Origin: Patescibacteria group bacterium
GTDB lineage: Bacteria > Patescibacteriota > Microgenomatia > UBA1400 > PJMF01
Reading direction: 5' to 3'
Length of the DNA: 64,000 nt
Assembly (NCBI GenBank): GCA_018830045.1
Contig: JAHJTF010000020.1
Coordinates: 4,667 to 68,666 of the forward strand
Position numbers and translations under genes: made by a program. This document shows positions 1,550-62,180 of this stretch, one piece after another. Below the pieces are notes generated by a model, which was not told the origin of the DNA, did not search any database, and was given only the letters and a program-made list of their open reading frames with translations. Numbering within the stretch: position 1 is the first letter of the stretch; each line of letters opens with the position of its first letter.

Positions 1550-3500
<1,951 letters not shown>

Positions 3501-3634
3501 AGAACTCCTTTGATTGTTAATAATATTTTTATTACTAATTGACCATTGGTCAACTGTGCTAGCAATCGTAACCATAGATTGCTAATTTGTCAATTGCGAA
3601 AATTGCGAAAATTGGGTTGCGAAAATTGTGGTAA

Positions 3635-4786: not shown

Positions 4787-5878
4787 ATGAAAACTCTAGA
4801 TAAAATGAAAATTTTAGATATTGTCAAAACTCCAGAGAAAGAAGTAATTAATACTACAGTTAAGGTATTGGGTGCTGGTGGTCTAGTGATCTTTCCTACA
4901 GAAACTGTTTATGGCGCCGGGGTAGATGCGACTAATCAAACAGCGGTGGATAAGCTTCTAGCTTATAAATCCCGGCGTGAGGGCAAACCACTCTCAATCG
5001 CCGTACCAGATCAACAAACCGCGGCTAAATTTGTACAAATTAATGACCAGGCCAACAAACTCTTTCAACGCTTTCTTCCTGGCCCAGTCACTGTGGTTTC
5101 AAAAGGCTTAAATAAAGTCGCCAAAGGCGTAGAGTCTGAATTTGGTACTTTAGGGGTGAGAATTCCCGATCACGCCCTGGTGATCAAAATTTTAATCGCT
5201 TTTGGAAAACCAATTACTGCCACTTCTGCTAATGCCTCTGGCAAGAAACGCCCTTACTGCGTGGCCGACATTTTTGGCAGTCTTTCACACAAACAGCAAC
5301 GCCTGATTGATCTGGTACTGGATGCAGGCCAGTTGCCTCCCAACGAGCCCTCCGCAGTCATTGATACGACTTTCTCTACACCTACGACTCTGCGGGCGGG
5401 GAAAATTAAGACAGCTGGTAAAAAACCTCTCATTTCTCACTCTGAAGATGAAACTAAAAAAATTGCCGGTACCTTAATGCTTAAACACTGGGATCAGATC
5501 AAAGAATCAGGTTTAATCATCGGACTAAATGGTCCACTAGGAGCCGGAAAAACTATTTTTACTAAGGGCGTGGGTGATTTTTTGCGCATTGCAGACACCA
5601 TCACTTCTCCGACTTACTCTTATATTGCAGAGTATGATTATCAGCGCCATGGAGTGAAGGGTAAGCTCTATCACCTTGACCTATGGAAAATTGACACCAA
5701 AGAAGAACTGGAGAGATTAGAAATAGAAAAGTTAATTGCACCTCACAATGTTGTTGCGATCGAATGGTGGGAACAAAATCAGGAGTATTTTAAAAAAATA
5801 ATCAAGAAAAAAGCGGCTACTTTACTCACAATTTTACTTGAAGAAAAAAGCGATCAATCAAGAAAAATTATGATTTAA
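4787..5878 (+). CDS. Fused L-threonylcarbamoyladenylate synthase (TsaC/Sua5, YrdC domain) and TsaE (YjeE P-loop ATPase)
   Basis: The N-terminal half carries YrdC motifs (GGLVIFPTETVYGAGVDATN). The C-terminal half carries TsaE motifs (GLNGPLGAGKTIFTKGV, SPTYSYIAEY, LYHLDLWKI). The start was chosen at MKTLDKM and could lie up to 26 codons upstream. Confidence 0.6.
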   Translation: MKTLDKMKILDIVKTPEKEVINTTVKVLGAGGLVIFPTETVYGAGVDATNQTAVDKLLAYKSRREGKPLSIAVPDQQTAAKFVQINDQANKLFQRFLPGPVTVVSKGLNKVAKGVESEFGTLGVRIPDHALVIKILIAFGKPITATSANASGKKRPYCVADIFGSLSHKQQRLIDLVLDAGQLPPNEPSAVIDTTFSTPTTLRAGKIKTAGKKPLISHSEDETKKIAGTLMLKHWDQIKESGLIIGLNGPLGAGKTIFTKGVGDFLRIADTITSPTYSYIAEYDYQRHGVKGKLYHLDLWKIDTKEELERLEIEKLIAPHNVVAIEWWEQNQEYFKKIIKKKAATLLTILLEEKSDQSRKIMI

Positions 5879-6468
5879 AAATAATTCTTAACTAAAATAT
5901 GGGTGTTTTGGACAAAGTATGCTTTTACCTTCTTCCACTGGTTATCTATAATCTCCACTCTCTCTGATAACTCTTCTGCATCAGTAAAATATACTAAGGA
6001 CTTAAATATATGAGGCAAATAACTTTCATCCCGCCCATATTTTTTTTGATTTAACTTCAATAACTTTTCCAAATCATAGTCATCTAACTGACAGATGGTG
6101 TAAAGATCAAAAAAATCTCTCTTAAAACCCCTACTTAAAATAGCCTCTAGCTTCATAGCTCCAATATCTGCCACTGAGGCAATTGGTAAACCCTGAAACT
6201 TAATTGGTTTTTCTAGCAACGGATATTGATAATAAAACAAACTTAACTCAGTATTTTGAGAAATACCATAAATTGTCTGCCAAGAAGTAGAAGTAAGTTG
6301 AAAATCAGGAATTTTTTGCTCCAAGAGCTGAAGGTAGAGCTGAGCCTCAAACTCCTGAGGTGAATAAAGATCAAGATCAAAAGACCGCCGATGATTAAGA
6401 TGCAAAGCCAATGCCGTACCGCCAGCCAAATAAGTATTTGGAGGCAAAAGTGGCACTAATAAGCCCAT
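5875..6468 (-). CDS. AbiEii/AbiGii-family nucleotidyltransferase toxin (type IV TA)
   Basis: Contains GGTALALHLNHRRSFDLDLY, characteristic of the DUF1814/AbiEii family. The start was placed at the internal Met (MGLL...) to limit overlap with the upstream ORF. The six-frame ORF extends to 6546. Confidence 0.55.
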   Translation of the reverse strand: MGLLVPLLPPNTYLAGGTALALHLNHRRSFDLDLYSPQEFEAQLYLQLLEQKIPDFQLTSTSWQTIYGISQNTELSLFYYQYPLLEKPIKFQGLPIASVADIGAMKLEAILSRGFKRDFFDLYTICQLDDYDLEKLLKLNQKKYGRDESYLPHIFKSLVYFTDAEELSERVEIIDNQWKKVKAYFVQNTHILVKNYF

Positions 6469-6764
6469 GAGCTCTTGGGTGTGCGCTGAGATTTGAGCTG
6501 TAAACATCTCACTTCCTTTCTGGAAATATGAAAATATCCAGTCCAAAAATTGACATCTTTTTCCTTTAGTTGTGCGGAAGTTTTAACTACTTCAATAATA
6601 TCTTGCTGTTGATACACTTCTAGCATCCACCGCCAAGCATCTAAAGTAGCATTCTTTAAAAAACTACTAATAATATATTTTTTATCCCGCCCCGCATCTA
6701 GATTTTTAACTTCAGAACTTGGGAGAAGAGGTTGAAATTTTTGAGGCACTGATAGCACCAGCAT
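6456..6764 (-). CDS. Putative cognate antitoxin (AbiEi-like?) or hypothetical protein
   Basis: 102-aa ORF immediately upstream of, and overlapping, the AbiEii gene. It is shorter than typical AbiEi proteins. The call is by position only. Confidence 0.3.
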   Translation of the reverse strand: MLVLSVPQKFQPLLPSSEVKNLDAGRDKKYIISSFLKNATLDAWRWMLEVYQQQDIIEVVKTSAQLKEKDVNFWTGYFHISRKEVRCLQLKSQRTPKSSWAY

Positions 6765-6873: not shown

Positions 6874-7749
6874 TTATTTAAGATTAGCTTGATAAATGTC
6901 GAATGTTTCTTGATTAATTCTACCGTTGTCTAGCATTTTTTGGATAGTAGTTTGAATGTTTGGATATTCATGAGGTAGTTGCTGAATGATTCTAAATAGA
7001 TTGGTTCTTTTTTGGTGAAAATCCACATGGACTTTTGGCTGATCATTGGCTGCAATAGGGATAAAACCAGTCAAACTAAACCCCGGAATTTGAGTAGACT
7101 CAGCAACTAGATAAGCATTCCCCTGGAGAACATGAAAAGTATCTGACTGCAAAACGGTATAGGAAGTAAATTCTTCCATAGTACCAAAGGAGATTTTAGC
7201 GCCAGTTAAACGATGGTGTTGACTGATTAAGCTAGCCATGTCTCTAGGAGAGAGATGCTGGTCTTCTCGGTGAAGATCAGGGTTTAGGTAAAGAATTAAA
7301 GGGATGTTTCCAGTGGCATCTAGGACAGCTTGGATTTTTTTCTGAGGTGGTTGTGATCCACCAAAACAAGGAACCAATACTAAAGCTTGAGCACCTGATT
7401 CCTCAGCAAACTTAGCTAACTCAATAGTATTTTTGAGAGTATCAGAGGAAATTCCGACTAAGAGGTTAAGTTCTGCTGGGGCTGTTTCAGTTGCAGTTTG
7501 AATGACTTGTTTTTTTTGGTCTTGTGACAAGAATAAAAAACCACCGGCGTTACCAAGAAGAAAGACTGATCTGATACCGTTTTGAAATTGAAAGCCAAGA
7601 TTAATAGTTAATTGTTGGGTGTCGATTCCAAAAGACTCTGGTTCACCAATGAGAGGAGTAACCATTGGAGTGATTGGACCGTTGGGAATGTAACCAATGG
7701 TTTCTTTTTTTCTTCCTACTTCTACTACGGGCTGTTCTTTGAATGTCAT
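6874..7749 (-). CDS. Dihydrodipicolinate synthase / N-acetylneuraminate lyase family (class I aldolase) protein, divergent
   Basis: The N-terminal GPITPMVTPL, LLGNAGGF and LVLVPCF resemble the DapA-family fold. The start was chosen at MTFKEQ because the upstream extension of the ORF overlaps an IS fragment. Confidence 0.45.
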   Translation of the reverse strand: MTFKEQPVVEVGRKKETIGYIPNGPITPMVTPLIGEPESFGIDTQQLTINLGFQFQNGIRSVFLLGNAGGFLFLSQDQKKQVIQTATETAPAELNLLVGISSDTLKNTIELAKFAEESGAQALVLVPCFGGSQPPQKKIQAVLDATGNIPLILYLNPDLHREDQHLSPRDMASLISQHHRLTGAKISFGTMEEFTSYTVLQSDTFHVLQGNAYLVAESTQIPGFSLTGFIPIAANDQPKVHVDFHQKRTNLFRIIQQLPHEYPNIQTTIQKMLDNGRINQETFDIYQANLK

Positions 7750-7782
7750 ATCTTTCGGAGTGGGAATGAATTTGATTGCATA

Positions 7783-8507
7783 CCTAAAATGTACATTGGT
7801 AAACAATCTAGATCAAGAAGCGGTCAGTGTCATCGAAGAATAGCAATCGAGCTTAGTCTTGGCAAAAAGCGAGTTAGAAGATGCATGCAGTTGTTTGGCA
7901 TTAAGCCATACAAAAGAAAATCTAGATGGAGAAAAAGACGAGACGAAAGAAAAGCTCCAGCACCGTTTGCAAATCAGATTAAGAACCAATGTCCAATACA
8001 GCCAAATATAACTTGGATTGGCGATTTCACGTACTTGCCATTCAAGGGTAAATCCTCTACTTAGCCACCTTCATGGATTTATTTACCAGAGAGATTGTTG
8101 GTTGGCAGATTTCCAGCAAACACGACAAAAACTTAGTGATAAAAGCCTTTTTAGATGGTGTAATGAACAGAGATTTACAGAAACCAACTTACATTCACAC
8201 CGATCAAGGCTCTGAATACACCAGCCAAGATTACACCAAACTAGTACAGGATTTTGGTGTGACTATTTTGATGAGCACCAAATCTTCGCCTTGGGAAAAT
8301 GGATTTCAAGAATCGTTTTACAACAACTTCAAAACTGACTTGGGATTAGAATTTGACCGCTTCGAAAACGAGGATCATTTCCTAGGAGAAATTCACTACA
8401 CACTTCACAATTATAATCACAACAGAATCCACTCAGCACTCAAAATGCCGCCTGCAAAATTCCACGCCAACTATTTAGAAACTGTGTGCAAAAAAAGGGG
8501 TGCTTGA
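7783..8507 (+). pseudogene. Decayed IS3-family transposase (orfB fragments, frameshifted and N-terminally truncated; no orfA)
   Basis: Two ORFs in different frames (7612..8064 C-terminal part and 8073..8507) together align to the intact orfB at 10021..10818 (…NITWIGDFTYLPFKGK… / …HTDQGSEYTS…SPWENGFQESF…RIHSALKMPP…). The rve integrase core signature is present. Confidence 0.6.
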
Positions 8508-8520
8508 CATATTTTATTGA

Positions 8521-9123
8521 TTATCCGACTGTAAACATCATATCTATCACATTCATGCCACCCTTATCCTTGAAGTTGCCTAATTGCTTGAAGCCATTTT
8601 TCTCATAATATTTTATCGCTCTCTGATTATCAGCAAAAACTCCACCCCACAGTATTATTCGTCGTCGTCCAAATTGACGAGCAACGCTAACTACGTGAGG
8701 AAAAAGCGTACTTCCCACACCATGATTCTGGTAGTGGTCTGAGAGGCAAGGGCCAATTCTACAATCAGTTGATGAGGCTGATTTGATACCGTAGCTAGAA
8801 AAACGATCGATATCGTTCTGCGGAATATCGAAATCGAACTCGAAGAGAGCGATGATATTGTTTATTGTTCCAGAATGAACAACAAAACGCAACTTATCAT
8901 AACGATTGATTGAGCCACACATCTCTTTTGCTGACGAAACATCGTAGCCACCAAGGCTGTAAAACTCTCTTGTTGCAAAAGATAAGTTACCTAGAAAAAT
9001 GGCGAGACTAGAACAATCGCTAGCAGTAAGCGGACGGAACACAACCTTCTCTCCTGAAGATAGAAGTGATTCAAAAGTTAGAAGTTTGGGATCGGCAAAT
9101 ACCTGAGAAAGAGTAAGAGGCAT
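8521..9123 (-). CDS. GNAT-family N-acetyltransferase
   Basis: 200 aa with the acetyl-CoA-binding motif region (QNHGVGSTLF…NQRAIKYYEKNGF). Confidence 0.7.
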   Translation of the reverse strand: MPLTLSQVFADPKLLTFESLLSSGEKVVFRPLTASDCSSLAIFLGNLSFATREFYSLGGYDVSSAKEMCGSINRYDKLRFVVHSGTINNIIALFEFDFDIPQNDIDRFSSYGIKSASSTDCRIGPCLSDHYQNHGVGSTLFPHVVSVARQFGRRRIILWGGVFADNQRAIKYYEKNGFKQLGNFKDKGGMNVIDMMFTVG

Positions 9124-9150
9124 AATTTAATAATAACTCAATATATCATT

Positions 9151-9175
9151 TAACGTTGCGTGTATCTGATGTTGC
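9151..9175. repeat. Solo left arm of the structured IR-element family (TTAACGTTGCGTGTATCTGATGTTG)
   Basis: Matches the left terminus of the elements at 9226 and 12346. No matching right arm follows. Confidence 0.5.
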
Positions 9176-9225
9176 CGCGAGATATAATGATTGTACATCC
9201 TTAAAGAGTGAAGGATAATTTCGCC

Positions 9226-9340
9226 TAACGTTGCCTGTATATCTGATGTTGGGTACGGGGATAATTTTAGCATGGACGTGCTAGTCTCCGTACCCAATAT
9301 GGGTCGAGCGACAGCCGGAGCGAGCCAGATATACAGTAGT
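9226..9340. repeat. Structured inverted-repeat element (copy B), MITE-like or attC-like
   Basis: The outer IR ctgtatatctg (9235-9245) is the exact reverse complement of cagatatacag (9327-9337). An inner stem gggtacgggg/ccgtaccc is also present. The left terminus GCCTAAC fits the attC inverse-core consensus RYYYAAC. Confidence 0.55.
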
Positions 9341-9372
9341 TGTACGAGGGTGAGCGAGAAAAATAAAATGGA

Positions 9373-9660
9373 TTACTCGGATTTTTCGAGCGAAAGCGTA
9401 GCGTCCCCTTGAGTTGATTCATCCATTACAGGGATTGGTTCAGCAAGCCGTTCTACTAATATGCCAAGAAGTTGTTTTTGCAAATCGGGAGATTGCGCGG
9501 TACCGTGGATAAGCCACGAGACAAAATCATGGGCTTCGAGAGGATCCTGCCTAAGATAGGCAACACCAGAGTCGTAATCTCCATCAAAAAGAACCTTCTT
9601 GGCGGCCTCAATTGTGGCTGGGTTGGGTTGTGCTGTTTCAGTCGGTTTCGGTATGTCCAT
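9373..9660 (-). CDS. Hypothetical protein
   Basis: 95-aa ORF between the IR elements and the intact IS3 copy. No recognisable motifs. Confidence 0.3.
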   Translation of the reverse strand: MDIPKPTETAQPNPATIEAAKKVLFDGDYDSGVAYLRQDPLEAHDFVSWLIHGTAQSPDLQKQLLGILVERLAEPIPVMDESTQGDATLSLEKSE

Positions 9661-9725
9661 AGAGTTATTGTAATTGACCCGCCCCCTTTAAACTAAGACA
9701 AGTTTCTAAGTTAAAATAACGACAC

Positions 9726-9992
9726 TTGAAAAGGGGTGGGATTATGTTTTCAAAAATCCCGAAAGAGAAAAAGGAAGAGATCTTAGCCAAAGTTAAGGCT
9801 GGAGAAAAAGTGGCGACTCTGGCCTCCCAGTATGGGATCAGTGACAGAACTATCTACTTTTGGCTTCGCTTAGATACCAAGGAAGAGGTAATATCTATCC
9901 TCAAGTACAACAAACTCAAGAGGGAGTGCGAAGAGCTAAAACGCTTAGTCGGAGAACTCACTCTTAACATGAGTTTGGGGAAAAAAAGTTGA
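9726..9992 (+). CDS. IS3-family transposase OrfA (HTH)
   Basis: 88 aa (…ATLASQYGISDRTIYFWLR…) with a coiled-coil tail. It lies immediately upstream of orfB. Confidence 0.65.
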   Translation: MKRGGIMFSKIPKEKKEEILAKVKAGEKVATLASQYGISDRTIYFWLRLDTKEEVISILKYNKLKRECEELKRLVGELTLNMSLGKKS

Positions 9993-10020
9993 GCTAGTCA
10001 AACATGCTAAGATCAAAACT

Positions 10021-10818
10021 GTGGTGGCTACTGCTGTTGGAATCTCTCGCAAGGACATCTATCGCCAGCCTAAGCTGCCAGAGAAAGATAGAGTCTTAGT
10101 TGAGGCTATCAAGGAGGCCTTTACTCTCCACCCTGCATATGGCCAATACAAGATAGCACTCCATCTGAAGGTGAACCATAAACGAGCTGAACGAGTGATG
10201 AAAGAGAATGGTCTCAAAGCTCCCAGGAGGAAAACCAAGTACTTCTGTACCGTCTCAACCTATCACCACACCTATACCAACCTCATCAAAGAGATCCTAG
10301 AAAGTGAGTTTGTTCCACACCTGATTTGGGTTTGCGATGTCTCGTATTTCAAATTCAAAGGAGAGATGTGGTACCTAGCAAGCATTGAGGACTTGGCCAC
10401 CAGGCAGATCCTCTCCTCCCAAATCGGCAAACACCATGATGCTAATCTAATCATCTCAACCATCAAACAAGCTATCCAATTGACTGATTATCTTCCCAAA
10501 TACTTCCATACCGATCAAGGCAAGGAGTTTATGGCCAAAGTGGTGACTGATTATCTGGAGTTGCAGGGAGTGAAAGTCTCCGTCTCGGCCAAAGCCTCTC
10601 CTTGGCAGAACGGCTACAAGGAAAGTTTCTTTGGACACTTCAAAGATGAGTTTGGCGAGATTAACCGATTTGATTCTGTGGGACTACTAATAGAGGAGAT
10701 CTATTCCCAAATCCACTACTACAATTTTGATCGTATCCACCGCTCGCTCAAAATGTCACCGGTACAATTTGCCACCCTTCATTTCCCAGAATATTGTCTT
10801 CACAAACGGGGGGCTTGA
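10021..10818 (+). CDS. IS3-family transposase OrfB (integrase core domain)
   Basis: 265 aa (…HLIWVCDVSYFKFKG…HTDQGKEF…SPWQNGYKESF…RIHRSLKMSP…), the rve DDE signature. The frame may extend upstream to allow a programmed frameshift fusion with orfA. Confidence 0.8.
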   Translation: MVATAVGISRKDIYRQPKLPEKDRVLVEAIKEAFTLHPAYGQYKIALHLKVNHKRAERVMKENGLKAPRRKTKYFCTVSTYHHTYTNLIKEILESEFVPHLIWVCDVSYFKFKGEMWYLASIEDLATRQILSSQIGKHHDANLIISTIKQAIQLTDYLPKYFHTDQGKEFMAKVVTDYLELQGVKVSVSAKASPWQNGYKESFFGHFKDEFGEINRFDSVGLLIEEIYSQIHYYNFDRIHRSLKMSPVQFATLHFPEYCLHKRGA

Positions 10819-10929
10819 CAGTTCATTGCCAAATATGTGACTTAGCCATACAGAATTAGCCATACATCTTGATATTTCTTCTTTGCCAGATATACTACGG
10901 ATATTAAAATATTTTAGAAAATATTATCA

Positions 10930-12180
10930 ATGGCTGTTTCTGTAGAGCTCAAACGAGCATGGCGTGAATTTAGGAAAGAACACACAGCTCCTATTTACTC
11001 AAGAGAGGCGCAGTTAGCTATGGGAGATTGGGCCGGAGGATTGGCTCAAGGATTATTAAGTACTGAAGTCTTAGGATTTATTGGGAATAAAATAACTCAA
11101 TCGAATAAAAAATTATATAAGCGAATAGTCGAAAAACAAGGACAAGTGCGAATTGATGTTCAACGAGATGGTAACTTTCGAGTGAATCCACAAGCAATCA
11201 CAGATACAAGTCTTCCCAGATATCTTTTAAGAAAACCAGATGTAATCCCGTCGGTGATAAATGATCTAATCGTTTCACCTGAAGTCATAAAAGACACATT
11301 GGTTAAACAAGCAACAAGGATAACTTTTGGAGAAAAAACAGCACCTTCTGAAGTTACTTCAGATCAAATTGGAATGCTTGCGCAAGCCGTCTTGGGATTA
11401 GCTATTGAAGCCAAAATTAATCTAAGAGATTTGCAAACAGCAACGAGTAGTAACCCAGGAAAAAAACAAAGTTTAACAGAAAGCGTATTTAAAATTCCAT
11501 TTGATGAATTTTTTATTCCAGAAAAAGTAGTGAGCGGATGTCTTTTTGATGAAGAGAAAGGTGTTTATACCGACACTCGAGGAAGAGAACATCATTTAAC
11601 TATCAACAGCCAAGGAGAAACTTTTGTTTTAGTGAAAGGTGTAGGCGGGAGATATTATTTTAAAACAATTAATGGTCAAGATACCACCGTATTAAGAGAA
11701 ACAGCTTTAGGATTAGAACAAAAACTAATATCGAAAAGAGAATTTATTCATTTATCAAATATTAGAGAAAGAAGAGCACCAGAATCAAGATTAAATTCTT
11801 TAATGACAAATATGGGTGATTTTGTGTTTAACGTTTTTCAAACTGTAGCTAATGGAAGAAATAGAATAAATGTCATCAGAAGATTGACTCAGTTCCTTAC
11901 AGGTTCTAGAGAAATACGGATAACGCCTGATCATCGAGGACTATTTATGCATAAAGGACGAATAATAAAAACATTTACATATCCCCATATTGGACAATTA
12001 AATTGGTTGGAAGGTAATCAATATACTAATGAAAGTGAGACCCCCGTTGATGTATCAGGCATTGAATTAACAGTCACAGAAAATATTCTTACTCGTTTAA
12101 GAGATTTAATCTGGGAAATGCTTAACAAAAATGCTTCATCTGTAAAAGTGGGTGAAACATCACTATCCGCCGCAGATTAA
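10930..12180 (+). CDS. Hypothetical protein (orphan cargo gene in the island)
   Basis: 416-aa ORF with no recognisable motifs. It is followed 170 bp downstream by IR-element copy C and a terminator. Confidence 0.4.
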   Translation: MAVSVELKRAWREFRKEHTAPIYSREAQLAMGDWAGGLAQGLLSTEVLGFIGNKITQSNKKLYKRIVEKQGQVRIDVQRDGNFRVNPQAITDTSLPRYLLRKPDVIPSVINDLIVSPEVIKDTLVKQATRITFGEKTAPSEVTSDQIGMLAQAVLGLAIEAKINLRDLQTATSSNPGKKQSLTESVFKIPFDEFFIPEKVVSGCLFDEEKGVYTDTRGREHHLTINSQGETFVLVKGVGGRYYFKTINGQDTTVLRETALGLEQKLISKREFIHLSNIRERRAPESRLNSLMTNMGDFVFNVFQTVANGRNRINVIRRLTQFLTGSREIRITPDHRGLFMHKGRIIKTFTYPHIGQLNWLEGNQYTNESETPVDVSGIELTVTENILTRLRDLIWEMLNKNASSVKVGETSLSAAD

Positions 12181-12345
12181 TTCAATTTATACAAAGTAAT
12201 TTTCCGGAAAGTATCGTGCCTTATTCAGCCGATTATGTACCTCCATGATTTGTAAAACATCTCGAATTGTGTGATACACAGAAAAGAAGATTAAAGAGAA
12301 AAAGACAAACCGTATAGTTTTTGACATAATAGTTTTTTATTATTT

Positions 12346-12446
12346 CATCTAACGTTTGCGTATATCTGATGTTTTGCGAAGCGTAGCGGAGCAAAATATG
12401 GGTGGAGGCTCTGCAAGAGCCGTAACCAGATATACGCTGTTAGCTT
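12346..12446. repeat. Structured inverted-repeat element (copy C), MITE-like or attC-like
   Basis: The outer IR gcgtatatctg (12358-12368) pairs with cagatatacgc (12427-12437). Extended imperfect arms ctaacgtttgcg…/…cgctgttagc carry unpaired bases. Internal hairpins are ttttgc…gcaaaa and ggctct-gca-agagcc. The termini ATCTAAC…GTTAGCT fit the attC R''/R' consensus RYYYAAC…GTTRRRY. Confidence 0.55.
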
Positions 12447-12466
12447 GATGTAATTCTTTTCTTTTT

Positions 12467-12490
12467 CCCGACAGCAGTCGGGGTTGTTTT
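12467..12490 (+). terminator. Rho-independent terminator
   Basis: cccgac-agca-gtcggg stem followed by gttgtttt, downstream of the 10930..12180 gene and IR copy C. Confidence 0.45.
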
Positions 12491-12579
12491 AAAAATTTTC
12501 AAATTTCTTTTTCCGTTTTGGGCGAAGGGCAGAGGGGAATTAAAGGGGTGAATGCCCGAGCCCAAAACACCTTTGTCGT

Positions 12580-12834
12580 CTATTTTTTGATTTTGTTGAA
12601 CAATGCGGCAAACAACCAAACGGCAAGAATAGTCACGATGTTCCAGATAACTAAACCTGAAATAAAGTAACCGAAGTTAAGAAAATCTGACTTAAAAGAT
12701 ACATCGGTATGCAGGGAAAATCTCATAAATAGTTCTCTGCTTGGCGGGTAGATTGCTACGCCAGCAAAACAGATTGTATAAACAATGCTTACCCAAGCTG
12801 AAGCGACTTTTATCAAATGTTTTAAATTTATCAT
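12580..12834 (-). CDS. Small membrane protein (2 TM), hypothetical
   Basis: 84-aa hydrophobic ORF immediately downstream of the P-type ATPase on the same strand. Confidence 0.35.
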   Translation of the reverse strand: MINLKHLIKVASAWVSIVYTICFAGVAIYPPSRELFMRFSLHTDVSFKSDFLNFGYFISGLVIWNIVTILAVWLFAALFNKIKK

Positions 12835-12873
12835 ATTTTTTAAATTAATTAATTTAATTAAATTCGACCTTTA

Positions 12874-15054
12874 TTATTTTAGTGCTTTGTTTTTTAAAAG
12901 TACAGCATTGACGGCCACAATAATAGTACTTAAAGACATAAACACTGCCGCCAGTGCCGGTTGAAGCAGTATGCCTTTAAAAGCAAGCGCGCCGGCCGCG
13001 AGAGGCAAGGCGAAAATATTATATCCGGTTGCCCAAAAAAGATTTTGGATCATTTTTGAATAGGTCAGCTGGGACAACTTAATAATTTTAACAATATCCC
13101 GGGGATCATTTCTGACGAGAATGATCCCCGCTGACTCAATGGCAACATTGGTACCTGCGCCAATCGCGATGCCAAGGTCAGCCTGCGCCAAGGCCGGAGC
13201 GTCGTTAATGCCGTCACCGACCATCGCGACCCTTAAGCCCCGACCCTGCAATACCTTCACCTTTTCAGATTTTTCGTGAGGAAGTACCCTGGCAAAATAT
13301 TCATCGATGCCAAGCTCTTGGCTGACCCATTTTGCTACATCTTCGGAATCACCAGTAATCATCGTAGTTCGAATTCCGATATCCTTAAGTGCTTGTATTG
13401 CTTCACGGGACTCCTCCCTAATAATGTCGGCGAGAGCCAATGCTCCCAAAAGCACTTGATCTTTGACAATAAAAACGATTGTCTGTCCTTTTTTGCCGGC
13501 ACCCTGAACCTGTTTAGTAAGTTCAACGGGAATATTGATTCCTATACTTTCAAGAAGCGATGGGCCGCCCACCATAACCTCTTTTTCTTCAATAAACGCT
13601 TTTACTCCTTTGCCTTTCAATGCTTCAAACTTTTTTGGCTCCTTTAGAGAAAGTCCTTGTTCCTTAGCTTTCGCAACAATCGCTTTTGCAATTGGATGCT
13701 CCGACAGGGCATCGAGAGAAGCGGCTAATTCCAAAATTTCATCTTCAGTATGATTGCCGACACTCCACACCTCCACGACTCCGAATTCTCCCTTTGTAAG
13801 CGTTCCTGTTTTATCAAACAGCACCGTATCAATAGTACGAGCAGCTTCCAAAGCGATTCTCTGTTTTACAAGAAAACCATTCTGTGCCGCTTTTGTTGTA
13901 GAGATTGAAGCAACAAGAGGCACCGCAAGCCCCAACGCATGCGGGCAGGCGATTACAAGCACCGCTACAAGCCTTGCCACAGCAAAACTAATTTCCGCGC
14001 CAGTCGCAAGCCAAGCGATCAGAGTGATAATGCCACTTGTAACGGCGACGATAGTTAAATATAGGGCGGCTTTGTCTGAAAGAATTTGTAATCGTGATTT
14101 TGATGCTTGCGCTTCGGCAACTAATCGCATAACTCCAGCGAGAAAGGTTTTTTCGCCAATATTTGCAATGTTAATTTTAAGCGCTCCATCACCGTTTATG
14201 GTACCTGCAATGACAGAATCCCCGTCTTTTTTAGAAACCGGCTTTGATTCTCCGGTAACCATAGACTCGTTCACATTTGATTCGCCGTCTATTATTTTGC
14301 CGTCCGCCGGGATTTTGGCTCCGGGTCGTACGAGCACCACATCATTCTCACGAAGTTCAGAAAGAGGAATAGTTTCCGTTTTCCCATTGCGAATAATTTC
14401 GGCAGTATCGGGGAGCAATTTAGATAATTCTTTTAGCGCGCCTTGCGCGCCACTTACCGCGCGCATTTCAAGCCAGTGGCCGAGAAGCATAATGGTTATA
14501 AGTGTCGTAAGTTCCCAAAATAAGACTTCTTCACCGGCAAAAAACGCATAGATGCTCCAGAAATAAGCCGCTGAAATGGCAATACTTATAAGCGTCATCA
14601 TCCCGGGCAAGCGTGCTTGAATTTCTCGCCAAGCGCCAACGAGAAAAACCCAGCCGCCATAAAAAAATACAATTGAACCAAATATCAAGGGCATGTATGT
14701 TGATCCAGAAAATTCCGGCGGCGACCATTTAAAAATCTTTTCAATAACATCAGCGTACAATACCACGGGAATCGTGAGCATCAGACTTATCCAAAATTTT
14801 CTAAAAAACATTGCGGTGCTGTGGCCCGCGTGCCTGCCCGCCGTAGCTTTAGCGAAGGCTGGCCTACTTGCGGAATGATCATCATGAGGTGATTTTTTTG
14901 GGTCGCGCATAGAATGATCCATTTTCATTTCCATCCCCATCTCTTTTTTTATGAGAATGAGATTCATACCACATTCCGGACATATTCCAGGTTTATCCCA
15001 CTGTACCTCCGGATGCATAGGACAGGTGTAAAAATTTTTAATATTATTTGTCAT
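12874..15054 (-). CDS. Heavy-metal (copper) translocating P1B-type ATPase, CopB-like (CPH motif) with His-rich N-terminus
   Basis: Carries DKTGTLT, GDGINDAPAL and the transmembrane CPH motif (ACPHALGLAVP). The N-terminus has a Cys motif (CPMHPEV…CPECGM) and a His-rich stretch (DHSMRDPKKSPHDDHSASRP…HAGHS). Confidence 0.85.
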   Translation of the reverse strand: MTNNIKNFYTCPMHPEVQWDKPGICPECGMNLILIKKEMGMEMKMDHSMRDPKKSPHDDHSASRPAFAKATAGRHAGHSTAMFFRKFWISLMLTIPVVLYADVIEKIFKWSPPEFSGSTYMPLIFGSIVFFYGGWVFLVGAWREIQARLPGMMTLISIAISAAYFWSIYAFFAGEEVLFWELTTLITIMLLGHWLEMRAVSGAQGALKELSKLLPDTAEIIRNGKTETIPLSELRENDVVLVRPGAKIPADGKIIDGESNVNESMVTGESKPVSKKDGDSVIAGTINGDGALKINIANIGEKTFLAGVMRLVAEAQASKSRLQILSDKAALYLTIVAVTSGIITLIAWLATGAEISFAVARLVAVLVIACPHALGLAVPLVASISTTKAAQNGFLVKQRIALEAARTIDTVLFDKTGTLTKGEFGVVEVWSVGNHTEDEILELAASLDALSEHPIAKAIVAKAKEQGLSLKEPKKFEALKGKGVKAFIEEKEVMVGGPSLLESIGINIPVELTKQVQGAGKKGQTIVFIVKDQVLLGALALADIIREESREAIQALKDIGIRTTMITGDSEDVAKWVSQELGIDEYFARVLPHEKSEKVKVLQGRGLRVAMVGDGINDAPALAQADLGIAIGAGTNVAIESAGIILVRNDPRDIVKIIKLSQLTYSKMIQNLFWATGYNIFALPLAAGALAFKGILLQPALAAVFMSLSTIIVAVNAVLLKNKALK

Positions 15055-15400
15055 AATTTTATAGTTTAATTGTTGTTATTGCGTCTGTTTTTCCCTTATA
15101 AATAAATCGTTTTCGTAGCCCCGCATCGGGTGCGGGGTAAACTTCGCGGAGAAAACTCCTTATATTCCCCTTTATAAAAAAGAAAAACAAAATCGTATTC
15201 TTTTTAAGAGCTGGGGCGATAGCCCCAAAAGGAAAACATGTATTTCAGCTAACTCCTTTTTATACGAATATTCTTCGTTATAAAAACCAATTATTGTATT
15301 TTTTACGAAGTCTTGTTAAACTTGCACCCAAGTTATTGATCTCAAATTACAAATTATAGATATTATATTTTTACTCTTCACATTTTACCACAAACTCATC

Positions 15401-16219
15401 ATGAACATTCACAGCCAACTCACTTTAACCGAACAAGAATTACTGTTAAGAAATTATAGTTCTAAAACTATCTCCAGCTATTTATCTGCACTCAAAAAAT
15501 ACTTAGTCTTTAAACAAGCGCGACTTTATAAATTAGATCTGCAAAATATCAAAAAATTTCTTCTTCAAGCTCAAAAAAACCACCTTTCACCTCAAACTCG
15601 TAATTTGTATCTCAGTGTAATTAAATTTTATTATTATCAAGTCATCAAAAATACGCAAAAAATTGAGCTTAGATTTGCTAAAAAAGCCAGTAGTTTACCG
15701 GTGGTTCTTTCTAGAAATGAAGTTAAACAACTCCTGCAAAATACCCTTAACGTCAAGCATCGCTTAATGCTGGCGCTTAGTTATGGAGCTGGGTTGCGGG
15801 TGAGTGAAGCAATGAGCCTGCGGGTGAGAGATCTTGATCTTGATCAACTCACCATTCATCTCAAACAAGCCAAGGGCAGCAAAGATAGAATTACAGTTTT
15901 CCCTCAAAAATTATCTACTAAAATTCAAAACCTCATTGCTGGCAAAAATCATCATAATTTTGTTTTTGAGAGTGAACGCGGAGGTAAGCTCACCACGCGC
16001 ACCGCCCAACAAGTTTTTCAGCGCGCACGTCAAAAAGCCGGTATTAAAAAAAATGCCACCTTTCATAGCCTGCGTCACAGTTTTGCTACTCACTTATTAG
16101 AAAATGGTGTTGATGTGCGCTATGTCCAAGAACTGCTTGGCCATCAAAATATTCGCACCACCCAACGCTATACCCAAGTGACTAATCCGCAATTAAAAAA
16201 CATTATTAGTCCTCTATGA
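15401..16219 (+). CDS. Tyrosine site-specific recombinase (XerC/XerD-like)
   Basis: The C-terminus HSLRHSFATHLLENGVDVRYVQELLGHQNIRTTQRYTQV carries the R-H-R-Y catalytic signature. At 272 aa it is too short for an integron integrase. Confidence 0.8.
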   Translation: MNIHSQLTLTEQELLLRNYSSKTISSYLSALKKYLVFKQARLYKLDLQNIKKFLLQAQKNHLSPQTRNLYLSVIKFYYYQVIKNTQKIELRFAKKASSLPVVLSRNEVKQLLQNTLNVKHRLMLALSYGAGLRVSEAMSLRVRDLDLDQLTIHLKQAKGSKDRITVFPQKLSTKIQNLIAGKNHHNFVFESERGGKLTTRTAQQVFQRARQKAGIKKNATFHSLRHSFATHLLENGVDVRYVQELLGHQNIRTTQRYTQVTNPQLKNIISPL

Positions 16220-44641: not shown

Positions 44642-44653
44642 TAGGCTCCTTGT

Positions 44654-45262
44654 ATGGAGATTCATCCTTATTATTATTCGTTGGAAAAACGTCTTTTTGA
44701 TGTAGTTCTAGCTATTTTTGTATTAATAATTTTATTCCCTATTCTATTAATGATTACCCTTTTAATCATGATCGGGATGGGATGGCCAGTGTTTTACCTG
44801 CAAAAAAGAGTAGGGAAAGATAAAAAAATTTTTGAGATGATTAAATTTCGCACCATGTATGTTGGTGCGCAAAAAAATCAATGGCGGTATCGCCAACACA
44901 ATCAGGCCCCAGAGCCAATGTATAAAAATTGGGACGACCCACGTTTTGTGAGCATAGGTAGATGGTTAGCAAAAACTGGCTTGGATGAACTTCCTCAACT
45001 CATTAACATTTTAAAAGGAGAGATGAGTTTTATAGGGCCAAGACCCCTACCAATACAAGAAGTTGGAAAACTAGATAAAACCTGGAATTTCAGGTATCTA
45101 GTCAGACAAGGAGTGTTTTCAGAATGGAGTACGTCTTTAAAAAAATACCTAACTCTCGAAGATTGGAAAAAACTAGAAGAAAAAACCCTCAGAAGAGGTG
45201 GGTTGGGGTATGAGGTTAAAACAATTGTCGCTACCTTTAAAACTTTATTACTAAAAATATAA
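44654..45262 (+). CDS. Polyprenyl-phosphate sugar phosphotransferase (bacterial sugar transferase, WbaP/EpsL C-terminal domain type)
   Basis: MIKFRTMY…DELPQLINILKGEMSFIGPRP, the signature of the bacterial sugar transferase family. Confidence 0.7.
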   Translation: MEIHPYYYSLEKRLFDVVLAIFVLIILFPILLMITLLIMIGMGWPVFYLQKRVGKDKKIFEMIKFRTMYVGAQKNQWRYRQHNQAPEPMYKNWDDPRFVSIGRWLAKTGLDELPQLINILKGEMSFIGPRPLPIQEVGKLDKTWNFRYLVRQGVFSEWSTSLKKYLTLEDWKKLEEKTLRRGGLGYEVKTIVATFKTLLLKI

Positions 45263-45265
45263 TCC

Positions 45266-47998: not shown

Positions 47999-48212
47999 TT
48001 TAATAAATTTAAAGATAAAATTCAGGATACGTTTCTACAAATTTTATCAGTGTTTAGTTTAGCCGTGACTTATTTGTTGGGAGTGGGATTGACTCGCTTA
48101 ATATCAGTATTTGTTGATAAAAAATTTTTGCCCCCTGCTTCCACGAGCTCTCAGTGGCAGACAACAAAGTACTCAGATAAAGTTAATAATAGTTTATACT
48201 AAAACAATTTCT

Positions 48213-49970: not shown

Positions 49971-50131
49971 ATTAGAAAGTAAATATGCTAAAAGAACTTT
50001 TGGAGTACTTATGGAAAAATAAGGCTTGGTGGATCGCTCCACCAATTATCATTTTCACTATTTTTGGGGCTTTAATCATTTTTTCTAGTACCTCGCCAGT
50101 AAGTTCGTTTGTGTATATGATGTTTTAGTTA

Positions 50132-54539: not shown

Positions 54540-54544
54540 AATAA

Positions 54545-56636: not shown

Positions 56637-56642
56637 ATTATC

Positions 56643-57743: not shown

Positions 57744-57756
57744 ACTTAAATTTTTT

Positions 57757-60787: not shown

Positions 60788-60791
60788 GTAA

Positions 60792-62174: not shown

Positions 62175-62180
62175 TTTATA

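What the first reader, a model, noticed from the sequence alone, without database searches (positions are those of the whole stretch)
9140..12450. Family of ~100-nt structured inverted-repeat elements with attC-like termini in the IS-rich island
Three copies share the core tatatctgatgtt: a full copy at 9226-9340, a full copy at 12346-12446 and a solo left arm at 9151-9175. The full copies have exact 11-bp outer inverted repeats (ctgtatatctg/cagatatacag; gcgtatatctg/cagatatacgc). They enclose internal hairpins whose sequences differ while the structure is retained. The longer imperfect arms leave unpaired bases. The termini match integron attC core-site consensus: ATCTAAC…GTTAGCT at copy C and GCCTAAC at copy B, against RYYYAAC…GTTRRRY. 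Copy C sits in cassette position, downstream of an orphan ORF (10930..12180). Copy B lies next to a GNAT acetyltransferase, a classic cassette gene type. The elements could be attC sites of a CALIN-like cassette cluster, a MITE family mobilised by the local IS3, or a small structured RNA.
Basis: seen in the sequence. Interest (0 to 1): 0.7.

Follow-up and report, generated by a model that had tools for sequence, protein, structure and literature searches.

The report
Integron-like gene-cassette sites in Patescibacteria
The repeated ~100-base hairpin elements are the recombination sites of an integron-like gene-cassette array. The array sits next to a tyrosine recombinase that lacks the hallmark integron-integrase domain. 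The same arrangement recurs in hundreds of related sequences, mostly labelled as candidate-phyla (Patescibacteria) bacteria, and I found no published description of it.

Summary
The window holds two full copies (12341-12451 and 9217-9350) and one internally deleted copy (9142-9200) of a structured element.

- **Structure.** An AAC/GTT outer box, an internal loop, an 11-bp stem and a branched tip. Covariation strongly supports it.
- **Distribution.** The element is not local. Sequence searches found several hundred copies, mostly in Patescibacteria MAGs.
- **Arrays.** Copies lie in same-strand arrays about 1.2 kb apart. Diverse genes sit between them, almost always on the opposite strand.
- **Recombinase.** Where the array's end is captured, it abuts a divergent ~270-aa tyrosine recombinase (window 15401-16219). 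The junction is conserved: cassette…TAAC|TCGTTTTTAKRCGAA.
- **Cassette ends.** The variable bases beside GTT of one site pair with those beside AAC of the next site, not with their own site. This is the signature of excisable circular cassettes.
- **Direct evidence.** One related locus has a perfect 919-bp cassette duplication bounded exactly at AAC. One copy lies at the recombinase-proximal site.

It was wrong on orientation and on CALIN status, and the MITE and RNA options are disfavoured.

The system is not a canonical integron. The recombinase lacks the IntI-specific domain, the inner stem has no extrahelical bases, and the tip is a conserved junction. I found no description of it in the searchable literature.

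The parts
15401..16219 (+). Tyrosine recombinase (272 aa), related to IntI and XerA, lacking the IntI-specific insertion. It is divergent from the cassette genes, and its stop overlaps the start of tsaD.
   Evidence: Pfam Phage_integrase plus SAM domains. NCBIfam: XerA_Arch 212.5 bits (cut-off 220); integron integrase TIGR02249 209 bits in two stretches (cut-off 265). Best PDB hit is VchIntIA 2a3v, with IntI4 residues 190-244 unmatched.
15242..15311 (.). attI-like site. A cassette-type flank ATTTCAGCTAAC (TAAC at 15250-15253) is joined to box 1 TTATACGAA (15260-15268), an inverted copy (15274-15283) and box 2 TTTTTACGAAG (15300-15310).
   Evidence: The same junction, YAAC|TCGTTTTTAKRCGAA plus a second direct-repeat box about 40 nt on, occurs roughly 115-180 nt upstream of the recombinase start in the 15 site-selected and 6 recombinase-selected loci printed.
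15290..15319 (-). Promoter-like site (TTAACA-18-AATAAT) pointing from the recombinase side across the attI-like site into the cassettes. A possible Pc analogue.
   Evidence: Consensus scan, 10 of 12 matches. The number of such sites in the region is no greater than chance, so this is weak.
12353..15252 (-). Cassette 1, running from the C of TAAC in site C to the TAA at the attI-like junction. It holds the site C core, the conserved tail, a DUF5676 gene (12580-12834), a heavy-metal P-type ATPase gene (12874-15054) and a leader.
   Evidence: Pfam. The 5' flank at the attI-like junction (AGCTAAC) is the exact complement of the 3' flank of site C (GTTAGCT). Boundaries are inferred from the cassette-end rule.
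12341..12451 (+). Site C, a full attC-like site. Outer box 12346-12353 / 12439-12446; internal loop GTTT vs T; stem P1 12358-12368 / 12427-12437; hairpin P2 12369-12399; unpaired GGGT 12400-12403; hairpin P3 stem 12407-12421.
   Evidence: CM 111 bits. Fold -41.8 kcal/mol, z -4.8. Covariation in relatives.
12452..12575 (+). Conserved tail linked to the site C type. It has a pyrimidine tract and two hairpins (12466-12483 and about 12524-12574), each followed by T-rich sequence on the + strand.
   Evidence: Shared at roughly 78-88% identity with more than 40 loci. Similarity stops at about 12573, just before the DUF5676 stop codon. Terminator-like call on the + strand.
9217..9350 (+). Site B, a full attC-like site of the second subtype. 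TAAC 9226-9229; P1 9235-9245 / 9326-9336; long P2; weak P3; GTTG 9339-9342. It is followed by a GAGGGTGA-type tail.
   Evidence: CM 81.7 bits. Fold -53 kcal/mol, z -5.05. This P3 type goes with GAGGG/GACCC-type tails in 58 of 74 copies.
9142..9200 (+). Site A, an internally deleted copy. Both flanks and both P1 arms are kept; the branched tip is lost.
   Evidence: CM 12.5 bits, E 0.81, aligned end to end with 59 model positions skipped. Sequence.
9373..9660 (-). 95-aa ORF of unknown function in cassette orientation, upstream of site B in gene direction.
   Evidence: ORF list. No Pfam hit.
8521..9123 (-). GNAT acetyltransferase gene in cassette orientation, beyond sites B and A. Its far end abuts a degraded IS3-like element.
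   Evidence: Pfam Acetyltransf_1. GNAT cassettes recur in related arrays.
9680..12180 (+). Disruption of the array: an IS3-family element (orfA 9726-9992, orfB 10021-10818) and an orphan 416-aa ORF (10930-12180), both on the strand opposite to the cassette genes.
   Evidence: ORFs; IS3 ends read; no Pfam hit for the 416-aa ORF (the two IS3 ORFs themselves were not scanned). The 3' flank of site B and the 5' flank of site C do not pair (2 of 4), unlike most adjacent sites elsewhere. This fits a rearranged interval.

Best explanation
The elements are attC-like recombination sites of an integron-like platform in a Patescibacteria chromosome.

**Layout.** The platform has three parts:
- a ~270-aa tyrosine recombinase gene (15401-16219, + strand);
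- a double-stranded primary site about 150 nt upstream of it (15242-15311);
- an array of gene cassettes on the opposite strand, each ending in one folded site.

**The site.** On the + strand, which is the bottom strand relative to the cassette genes, each site folds as single-stranded DNA. It has an outer box (NNNNTAAC / GTTANNNN), an asymmetric internal loop (about 5 nt against 2), an 11-bp inner stem and a branched tip with conserved unpaired GGG.

**Proposed mechanism.**
1. The recombinase cuts and exchanges strands at the AAC/GTT triplet.
2. This releases circular cassettes.
3. The circles re-insert at the primary site.

**Shown here by computation**
- the fold and its covariation;
- arrays on one strand;
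- gene orientation;
- the conserved recombinase-side junction;
- pairing of the two ends of the same cassette;
- one exact cassette duplication bounded at AAC, with one copy at the primary site.

**Inferred**
- that this recombinase is the catalyst;
- that the substrate is single-stranded;
- that the branched tip and the asymmetric loop replace the extrahelical bases of canonical attC in strand and register selection.

In this window the array is short and partly decayed: one intact cassette, then an interval interrupted by an IS3 element, then sites B and A and a GNAT gene.
For: **Structure**
- 96% of cells paired and 21 of 24 pairs with compensatory changes. Covariation score 0.538, against 0.131 in shuffles (0 of 500 reach it) and 0.06 or less in slid controls.
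- Inner-stem variants CTG/CAG, GCG/CGC, GAG/CTC and CCG/CGG.

**Spread**
About 225 of the stored matches were confirmed.
- nhmmer found 370 sites in 228 loci. The CM found 230 sites in 64 sources.

**Arrays**
- 83 of 84 multi-site loci have all sites on one strand. Median spacing is 1209 nt.

**Genes**
- The longest ORF is on the opposite strand in 126 of 135 intervals; 54,326 aa against 2,465 aa.
- 1879 protein clusters from 2517 ORFs.
- Cassette contents include DNA methylases, Fic, GmrSD, STAND ATPases and GNAT.

**Recombinase**
- 22 of the 26 ORFs in the recombinase cluster lie on the same side, on the same strand as the site, 0.65-3.3 kb away.
- Among 7 loci fetched from the recombinase side for five different recombinases, the model matched a site upstream on the same strand in four lineages at E up to 4.5e-06, none in L254 or L255.

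**attI-like junction**
-.

**Cassette-end rule**
- The 5' flank of site k+1 pairs 4/4 with the 3' flank of site k in 54 of 75 cases.
- Own-site flanks do so in 23 of 75, the reverse control in 17 of 75, random pairs in 19%. Wilcoxon p = 6e-7; binomial p = 3e-23.

**Core-tail linkage**
- The core type is linked to its 3' tail (105:0 for one type, 58:4 for the other). This places the crossover on the TAAC side.

**Cassette duplication (L267)**
- Two identical 919-bp copies, both bounded ...|ACAACGTTTCAG... and ...GTCAGCTAAC|. One is followed by the next site core, the other by the attI-like site and the recombinase gene.

**Strain comparison**
- L255 and L256 carry an identical recombinase and core flank. 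Their upstream content differs from 149 nt before the gene.

**Strand**
- The + (bottom) strand is more stable in 202 of 207 sites with DNA parameters. A G.T pair is nearly invariant, 146 of 148.
Against: - **No experiment.** No recombination assay and no excised circles were observed.
- **Recombinase.** It lacks the insertion reported as necessary for IntI activity (PMC9668308 citing Messier and Roy 2001). It scores equally well as an archaeal-type Xer. A published classification treats the candidate-phyla recombinases as Xer substitutes (PMC8138268).
- **Cassette sharing.** Apart from the L267 duplication, I found no identical cassette in two different arrays among 75 fully bounded cassettes.
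- **Ascertainment.** Sites were collected with a pattern that fixed 23 core bases, so conservation of those bases is partly by selection. The alignment used for pair counts was fitted to the model.
- **This window.** The B-to-C interval does not obey the cassette-end rule.
- **Transcription.** Terminator-like hairpins after the site on the + strand hint at transcription of that strand.
- **Host labels.** Non-Patescibacteria labels on MAGs (Altiarchaeum, Gammaproteobacteria) may be binning errors.
Confidence: 0.8

Rival explanations
1. The recombinase is the cell's chromosome-dimer resolvase (a single Xer). The site upstream of its gene is its dif site. The cassettes are IMEX-like hitchhikers that integrate there as folded single strands, as CTX phage does at the Vibrio dif site. 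The elements are still recombination sites, but the platform is not a dedicated integron.
For: - The NCBIfam XerA model scores 212.5 bits, just under its cut-off of 220, and the recombinase has no IntI insertion.
- The gene sits among housekeeping genes and overlaps tsaD.
- The family is very large and well conserved at ~270 aa.
- The 'Cand' subgroup of candidate-phyla recombinases is described as Xer-related (PMC8138268).
- Gene-linked dif sites are known for XerS (PMC2731167).
Against: - GC skew has the same negative sign on both sides of the locus (-0.09 at 1-4 kb; -0.07 to -0.16 at 12-24 kb). The site is therefore not at a skew switch within this 64-kb window.
- The two arms of the site are dissimilar. 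One arm is replaced with each cassette.
- The inserted units are 0.4-3 kb, mostly one-gene cassettes without replication or phage functions.
- Sequence similarity to VchIntIA (156 bits) exceeds that to XerA (138 and 122 bits) and XerD (79 bits).
Confidence: 0.2
2. The elements are ordinary integron attC sites, and the locus is a standard integron or CALIN that existing tools would already call.
For: - The outer boxes match RYYYAAC/GTTRRRY at 6 of 7 positions or better in 75-87% of 272 sites. AAC and GTT are 92-100% conserved.
- The layout is array-like, with an attI-like junction.
Against: - The recombinase lacks IntI4 residues 190-244, and the W157 position is K. It falls below the integron-integrase cut-off, 209 against 265 bits.
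- The inner stem is a continuous helix with no bulged bases; 97.7% of cells are paired.
- The tip is a conserved junction rather than a free variable loop.
- No paper in the searched library links attC or integrons with candidate-phyla lineages.
Confidence: 0.1
3. The element is a structured non-coding RNA transcribed from the + strand, for example an antisense or insulating RNA at cassette ends. The conserved fold serves the RNA.
For: - Strong covariation, with a near-invariant G.U pair that exists only on the + strand.
- The + strand folds better.
- The site C type is followed by terminator-like hairpins with T-runs on the + strand.
- A recurring GUAGCG..AGCGGAG loop motif is present.
Against: - No Rfam family matches, even at E up to 10.
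- An RNA role does not explain four findings: flanks pairing with the other end of the same cassette; the half-site fused to a recombinase-proximal sequence; the exact AAC-bounded duplication; or the constant antisense orientation to every neighbouring gene.
- No convincing promoter lies upstream of site C.
Confidence: 0.07
4. The elements are a MITE family mobilised by the local IS3 transposase.
For: The elements have inverted-repeat termini and are small and multicopy. IS3 elements lie within 400 nt of site B.
Against: - Orientation is uniform in 83 of 84 multi-site loci, and always antisense to the neighbouring genes.
- The sites are associated with a tyrosine recombinase, not with rve transposases, across loci.
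- The two IS3-like copies in the window share no sequence with the element or with each other.
- The terminal bases are not constant. They co-vary with the neighbouring cassette.
Confidence: 0.02

Closest known systems
Integron attC sites and sedentary chromosomal integrons (IntI1; VchIntIA of the Vibrio cholerae superintegron)
   Same: - A divergent tyrosine recombinase gene, with a primary site next to it.
- Same-orientation arrays of mostly single-gene cassettes with diverse content rich in defence genes.
- Each cassette ends in an imperfect palindrome whose outer boxes carry AAC...GTT.
- A unit boundary at that triplet, and outer half-boxes that pair with the other end of the same cassette.
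- The bottom strand is the better-folding strand.
- Repeated recombinase-type boxes in the primary site, like DR1/DR2 of attI1 (this comparison is from my own knowledge).
   Different: - The recombinase is ~270 aa and lacks the IntI-specific insertion and the W157-equivalent residue.
- The inner stem has no extrahelical bases.
- The spacer between boxes is asymmetric (about 5 nt against 2).
- The tip is a conserved branched junction (CTGATGTT...AATATGGGT...CCAG in the dominant type), not an unconstrained loop.
- Many sites carry a further conserved ~120-nt tail.
- The host range is centred on Patescibacteria.
Xer/dif systems and IMEX elements (XerCD with single-stranded CTX phage; XerS/difSL; XerH/difH; archaeal XerA)
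   Same: - The recombinase is short, Xer-like and chromosomal.
- Its site lies just upstream of its own gene, as with XerS.
- Mobile DNA integrates as a folded single strand at a fixed chromosomal site, and successive integrations build tandem arrays.
   Different: - The locus is not at a GC-skew switch in this window.
- The site arms are not a near-palindrome.
- The integrated units are small promoter-poor gene cassettes with a dedicated structured site, not phages or plasmids.
- Arrays reach at least 6-8 units within 8-14 kb.
'Cand' subgroup of simple tyrosine recombinases (Smyshlyaev et al. 2021, PMC8138268)
   Same: Xer-related recombinases of candidate phyla. This is probably the same protein clade.
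   Different: That work assigns no DNA site and no cassette array, and implies a Xer-substitute role. Whether the window protein belongs to that subgroup was not tested here.
MITEs and REP-type palindromic repeats
   Same: Short, multicopy, intergenic, hairpin-forming DNA.
   Different: Orientation is uniform relative to the genes. The sites are linked to a tyrosine recombinase and have cassette-specific termini. There is no sign of transposase-type insertion.

Membership tests
Integron attC site | Outer inverted core sites R''/R' matching RYYYAAC / GTTRRRY, with conserved AAC and GTT | tested here: met
   In 272 distinct sites: A11 0.99, A12 1.00, C13 0.92; G98 1.00, T99 0.99, T100 1.00. 236 of 272 and 205 of 272 match the 7-mers at 6 of 7 positions or better. 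Caveat: AAC and GTT were part of the detection profile.
Integron attC site | Inner inverted repeat (L box) separated from the R box by an unpaired spacer | tested here: met
   An 11-bp stem with compensatory changes at 10 of 11 pairs. The loop between the boxes is about 5 nt on the 5' side and 2 nt on the 3' side, so it is asymmetric, unlike the canonical spacer.
Integron attC site | Extrahelical bases in the L box that mark the recombined strand | tested here: not met
   The inner stem is a continuous helix, with 97.7% of cells paired and no bulged base in the consensus.
Integron attC site | Variable terminal structure without sequence constraint | tested here: not met
   The junction bases GA(T/A)GTT...AA(T/A)(A/T)TGGG...CC persist in most of the 116 full-length copies that fail the search pattern exactly. 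The hairpins themselves do vary: 100 and 87 distinct sequences.
Integron attC site | One site at the 3' end of each cassette, all in one orientation, genes co-oriented | tested here: met
   83 of 84 arrays lie on one strand. 126 of 135 intervals have the longest ORF on the opposite strand. 76 intervals hold one ORF of 80 aa or more.
Integron attC site | Crossover at G|TT, so that the R' half belongs to the next cassette and pairs with that cassette's own R'' | tested here: met
   Same-cassette flanks pair 4/4 in 54 of 75 cases, against 23 of 75 for own-site flanks and 17 of 75 for the reverse control. The 919-bp duplicate is bounded at AAC.
Integron attC site | The folded bottom strand is the substrate | tested here: inconclusive
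   The bottom strand (window + strand) is more stable in 202 of 207 sites. Which strand is recombined cannot be tested here.
Integron attC site | Score above threshold with the IntegronFinder attC covariance model | not testable with these tools
   That model is not available here and was not among the families matched. No Rfam family matched the sites.
Integron (platform) | Integrase with the IntI-specific additional domain | tested here: not met
   The alignment to VchIntIA skips IntI4 residues 190-244, and the W157 position is K. TIGR02249 scores 209 bits in two stretches against a cut-off of 265. All of the top 120 homologues are between 266 and 318 aa, most about 270.
Integron (platform) | attI site next to the integrase gene, receiving cassettes at GTT | tested here: met
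   Conserved junction and repeated boxes. One copy of the duplicated cassette lies at this junction. Function is inferred, not shown.
Integron (platform) | Cassette promoter (Pc) in or near the integrase gene | tested here: inconclusive
   One promoter-like match at 15319-15290 on the minus strand. The count of such matches in the region is no greater than chance.
Xer/dif | Recombinase passes a Xer family model | tested here: inconclusive
   XerA_Arch 212.5 bits against a cut-off of 220. XerC 183.5 against 335. XerD 178.3 against 330.
Xer/dif | Site located at the replication terminus (GC-skew switch) | tested here: not met
   GC skew is negative on both sides of the locus within the 64-kb window. 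This covers one genome fragment only.
MITE | Insertion in either orientation, with constant termini and target-site duplications | tested here: not met
   Orientation is uniform and the termini co-vary with the neighbouring cassette. Target-site duplications were not screened systematically.
Known RNA families (Rfam 15) | Match to a curated covariance model | tested here: not met
   The only hit in the window is a tRNA at 1375-1448. Nothing matched at the sites, even at E up to 10.

The most novel reading that the evidence does not exclude
Patescibacteria, and perhaps some of their neighbours, carry a previously unrecognised and very abundant lineage of integrons. Its recombinase is the Xer-like 'candidate-phyla' clade. 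It would perform attC x attI-type single-strand cassette recombination without the IntI-specific domain, using a conserved branched junction and an asymmetric loop in place of extrahelical bases. This lineage would be a sister or ancestor-like state on the path from Xer to IntI. It would be invisible to current integron finders.
Probability: 0.45. Interest if true: 0.9.

Novelty: new variant of a known kind. Interest (0 to 1): 0.8.

Why it matters
- **Gene exchange in Patescibacteria.** These bacteria are a large part of bacterial diversity, and how they exchange genes is poorly understood. A 2025 study of their gene exchange does not mention integrases or cassettes. A chromosomal cassette platform would give a concrete mechanism for their accessory-gene and defence-gene turnover.
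- **Integron definition.** Recombination without the IntI-specific domain would remove that domain from the list of requirements for folded-site cassette recombination.
- **Origin of integrons.** It would offer a testable intermediate between Xer recombinases and integron integrases.
- **Survey tools.** Integron surveys that require the IntI-specific profile would miss this class.
- **Experimental target.** The compact recombinase and its well-defined structured site can be tested directly and could become a recombination tool.

Tried and rejected
- **Rfam.** Searches at gathering thresholds and at E up to 10 found nothing at the sites.
- **Hammerhead ribozyme.** CUGAUG suggested one, but there is no GAAA core and no Rfam hit, so I dropped it.
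- **Viral contigs.** Seven pattern hits; only L004 is a true copy and the others look like chance matches.
- **Annotated plasmids and phages.** BLAST of site C plus its tail gave no match.
- **Extra copies in the window.** A weak model hit at 61933-62019 and a perfect 13-mer at 27843-27855 both lie inside long ORFs. I treat them as chance.
- **Long terminal inverted repeat for cassette 1.** By eye it seemed to extend beyond the outer box. A local alignment of the cassette head against the reverse-complemented tail scored 21, against 16.9 +/- 2.6 for shuffles. It is not supported in this window.
- **Same cassette in different arrays.** Among 75 fully bounded cassettes, the only match was a duplicate contig.
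- **Relation between the two IS3-like elements.** They share no repeat.
- **Contig ends.** Contigs often end just upstream of the recombinase gene. This is suggestive of population variation but not conclusive, so I did not use it as evidence.
- **Literature.** Nine searches and six papers read found no description of this system.

Full report
**1. Observation**

A 13-mer search gives the three copies against a chance expectation of about 2. Both full copies fold with z-scores near -5.

The fold has these parts:
- an outer box (…TAAC / GTTA…);
- a small internal loop;
- an 11-bp stem P1;
- two hairpins, P2 and P3, joined by conserved bases (CTGATGTT … AATATGGGT … CCAG).

No Rfam family matches, even at permissive thresholds.

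A covariance model built later scores copy C (12341-12451) at 111 bits and copy B (9217-9350) at 81.7 bits. Copy A (9142-9200) scores 12.5 bits as an internally deleted copy that keeps both flanks and both P1 arms.

**2. The element is a large family**

I scanned public collections with the pattern TCTGATGTT-N-AATATGGGT-N-CCAGA.
- Viral contigs gave 7 hits, one of them convincing.
- Of the 80 genome records whose titles were listed, about 45 are labelled with Patescibacteria-group names. The rest include unclassified bacteria, Gammaproteobacteria, Cloacimonadota and Altiarchaeum MAGs.
- About 225 matches are true copies, judged by extension of P1.

Two subtypes exist, each with its own downstream tail:
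- P3 'GGAGGC…GCCGTAA' with a 'GATGTA…' tail, as in copy C;
- P3 'CGAGCGA…GAGCGAG' with a 'GAGGG/GACCC…' tail, as in copy B.

The linkage between P3 type and tail is 105:0 and 58:4.

An HMM and the covariance model find many more, divergent copies: 370 sites in 228 loci and 230 sites in 64 sources.

Pair counts on 148 distinct sequences give:
- 96% of cells paired, against 72% in shuffles and 21-51% when partners are slid;
- 21 of 24 pairs with compensatory changes;
- a covariation score of 0.538, against 0.131 in shuffles, with 0 of 500 shuffles reaching it.

That alignment was fitted to the model, which favours the structure. However, the independent MAFFT/RNAalifold analysis already showed compensatory changes at 12 of 24 pairs. 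Divergent copies also show clean swaps in the inner stem: CTG/CAG, GCG/CGC, GAG/CTC and CCG/CGG.

P2 has 100 distinct sequences, and 99% of them form hairpins. P3 is weaker, especially in the copy B type.

**3. Context decides what it is**

I called ORFs around every copy and clustered them. The neighbours are extremely diverse, with 1879 clusters from 2517 ORFs. Almost all lie on the strand opposite to the element as I had oriented it.
- In 135 inter-site intervals the longest ORF is on that strand 126 times. That is 54,326 aa against 2,465 aa. Most intervals hold a single ORF.
- Sites in one locus share a strand in 83 of 84 cases. Median spacing is 1.2 kb.
- One protein cluster is the exception. 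It is a ~270-aa tyrosine recombinase found on one side of the sites, on the same strand as the site, in 22 of its 26 ORFs.
- The window has this gene at 15401-16219.

The layout is therefore: recombinase, then a divergent array of co-oriented cassettes, each ending in one site. This is integron architecture.

Cassette proteins include N6/N4 and C5 DNA methylases, Fic, GmrSD, AbiEii-type ATPases, STAND NTPases, GNAT and radical SAM enzymes.

**4. Primary site**

In the 15 recombinase-bearing loci printed, and in the window, a cassette-type flank (ATTTCNNNYAAC) lies roughly 115-180 nt upstream of the recombinase start. There it is fused not to a site core but to TCGTTTTTAKRCGAA. A second copy of the TTATRCGAA box follows about 40 nt further on.

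The boxes change together between lineages. They resemble the inner arm of the sites (ATATCTGATGT). In L165, box 1 is TTATCTGAAC.

I then sampled from the recombinase side, independently of the site pattern.
- The same junction appeared in the six additional loci fetched for four other recombinase lineages, as it does in the window's own contig L247.
- The site model matched upstream on the same strand in four of the five lineages (L247, L256, L253, L251/L252), the last two only weakly and L253 partially. It found nothing in L254 or L255.
- L255 and L256 carry an identical recombinase and identical core genes on one side. On the other side their content differs from 149 nt upstream of the gene.

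**5. Cassettes behave as discrete circular units**

If units are exchanged at the AAC/GTT triplet, the variable bases beside GTT of one site should pair with those beside AAC of the next site. In a circle, those two ends meet.

| Comparison | 4/4 pairs |
|---|---|
| 5' flank of site k+1 with 3' flank of site k (same cassette) | 54 of 75 |
| A site's own two flanks | 23 of 75 |
| Reverse control | 17 of 75 |
| Random pairs | 19% |

Wilcoxon p = 6e-7; binomial p = 3e-23.

The core type travels with its 3' tail, so the crossover lies on the TAAC side of my + strand. That corresponds to G|TT at the downstream end in gene orientation, as in integrons.

In the window, the flank at the attI-like junction (AGCTAAC, 15247-15253) is the exact complement of the flank after site C (GTTAGCT, 12439-12445). 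This defines cassette 1 as 12353-15252. It carries a P-type ATPase and a DUF5676 gene.

The clearest single case is L267.
- A 919-bp peptidase cassette is present twice and is 100% identical.
- Both copies start at ACAAC|GTTTCAG… and end at …GTCAGCTAAC.
- The first copy is followed by the core of the next site.
- The second copy is followed by TCTTTTTTATACGAA and the recombinase gene.

**6. Which strand**

With DNA parameters, the window + strand is the more stable in 202 of 207 sites, at -20.1 against -16.5 kcal/mol. This is the bottom strand relative to the cassette genes. One G.T pair at the base of P2 is nearly invariant and exists only on this strand. This agrees with bottom-strand use in integrons, which I recall from the established literature. 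It does not prove that the bottom strand is the substrate here.

**7. Membership**

The recombinase's best solved relative is VchIntIA, at 156 bits. It is ahead of two XerA structures (138 and 122 bits) and XerD (79 bits).

The alignment skips IntI4 residues 190-244, and the W157 position is K. From MacDonald et al. 2006, as I recall it, W157, W219, P232 and H240 contact the extrahelical bases. The last three fall in the missing segment.

NCBIfam places the protein just under the XerA cut-off (212.5 against 220) and under the integron-integrase cut-off (209 against 265, in two stretches).

The family is very large. It has 7364 clusters at E ≤ 1e-20, and the best 120 are mostly about 270 aa. 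The identical protein is named as coming from a Patescibacteria group bacterium.

The sites meet the AAC/GTT box consensus. They lack bulged bases in the inner stem, and their tip is conserved. Two defining features of canonical integrons were therefore tested and not met. I do not file this as a canonical integron, although it works like one.

**8. Rivals**

*Xer/dif with IMEX-type hitchhikers.* This is the serious rival.
- For: the recombinase is Xer-like and sits among housekeeping genes. The 'Cand' subgroup has been read as a Xer substitute. XerS has a gene-linked dif site.
- Against: GC skew does not change sign at the locus. The site arms are dissimilar. The inserted units are small cassettes.
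- This rival changes the name of the platform. It does not change the nature of the elements.

*RNA.* An RNA role on the + strand is possible as an extra, because terminator-like hairpins follow the site. It does not explain sections 4 and 5.

*MITE.* The MITE reading is contradicted by uniform orientation and by cassette-specific termini.

**9. State of the array in this window**

Beyond cassette 1, the array is interrupted by an IS3 element and an orphan ORF on the opposite strand (9680-12180). The flanks of sites B and C do not pair, which suggests rearrangement.

Sites B and A are 75 nt apart. A GNAT gene follows, and then a second, degraded IS3-like element.

**10. Novelty**

None of the nine full-text searches, nor the six papers I opened from them, yielded a description of this system. 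That includes the IntegronFinder 2.0 paper, the archaeal integron paper and a 2025 study of gene exchange in Patescibacteria.

The archaeal paper restates that the IntI-specific domain is a defining requirement.

The library lacks most subscription journals, so prior description cannot be excluded.

Noticed in passing
L267:520-1438 and L267:2197-3115: A perfect 919-bp tandemly arranged duplicate of a peptidase M23 cassette. One other cassette lies between the copies. The second copy sits directly at the recombinase-proximal site.
   Followed up: yes
window 12452-12575: A conserved ~120-nt tail after site C. It has two hairpins, each followed by T-rich sequence on the + strand, which is antisense to the cassette genes. 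More than 40 loci share it, and the similarity stops just before the stop codon of the cassette gene. Its purpose is unknown; it may terminate antisense transcription.
   Followed up: partly
window 12378-12391, 15108-15150, 9385-9400; many loci: A loop motif GTAGCG(N1-2)AGCGGAG caps hairpin P2 in many sites. It also recurs on TTTTC/GAAAA stems in cassette leaders and in the second type of tail. It gives a GUA/GGA internal loop reminiscent of a protein-binding kink.
   Followed up: no
L256:about 3430-3560 and L255:about 9700-9860: A second, simpler site type without the branched tip: ATTTCACATAAT-GTGC-GGCGGTATAAGCGAAGTCC…GGATTTTGCGTATACCGC-A-GTTAGGCGATGT. Its inner arm resembles the attI-like box. 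The model used here misses such sites, so arrays are longer than counted.
   Followed up: partly
L069:4198-4311: One site has its core (inner stem plus branched tip) inverted relative to its outer-box flanks. It looks as if the segment between the palindromic stem arms had flipped.
   Followed up: no
L184:9733-13839: The only multi-site locus with sites on both strands: 10568-10680 and 9733-9830 on the minus strand, 13733-13839 on the plus strand.
   Followed up: no
L255:9850-9886 and L256:3550-3587: Between the last cassette and the attI-like junction lies a 32-nt mini-palindrome shared by both strains (TTAGCCAAC…GTTGGCTAAC). It looks like two outer boxes with nothing between them.
   Followed up: no
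window 9680-10820 and 7612-8507: Two unrelated IS3-family elements flank the distal part of the array. The first has orfA and orfB (9726-9992 and 10021-10818). The second is degraded into two ORFs, the second of which hits the rve integrase core.
   Followed up: partly
window 10930-12180: A 416-aa ORF with no Pfam match lies inside the array on the strand opposite to the cassette genes, next to the IS3 element.
   Followed up: no
window 16216-16219; L253:2637-2639: The recombinase stop overlaps or abuts the start of tsaD, a housekeeping tRNA-modification gene, in two lineages. This suggests co-transcription with a core gene.
   Followed up: no
L248-L250 (start = window 15218); L262-L266 and L268: Contigs carrying identical recombinases often end 120-260 nt upstream of the gene. 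L264 begins exactly at the AAC of the junction. This fits population heterogeneity in the first cassette, but assembly artefacts are not excluded.
   Followed up: partly
L028, L073, L083, L067, L030, L034, L053 and others: True copies occur in MAGs labelled Altiarchaeum, Pacearchaeota, Gammaproteobacteria and Thiomargarita. Some are near-identical to Patescibacteria copies. This means either recent transfer or binning error.
   Followed up: no
window 44000-64000: G+C falls from about 0.40 to 0.32-0.36 in the last 20 kb of the window.
   Followed up: no
window 5875-6546: An AbiEii-type toxin gene (type IV toxin-antitoxin) lies on the minus strand beyond the array. Array-type accessory content may extend further than the detectable sites.
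   Followed up: no
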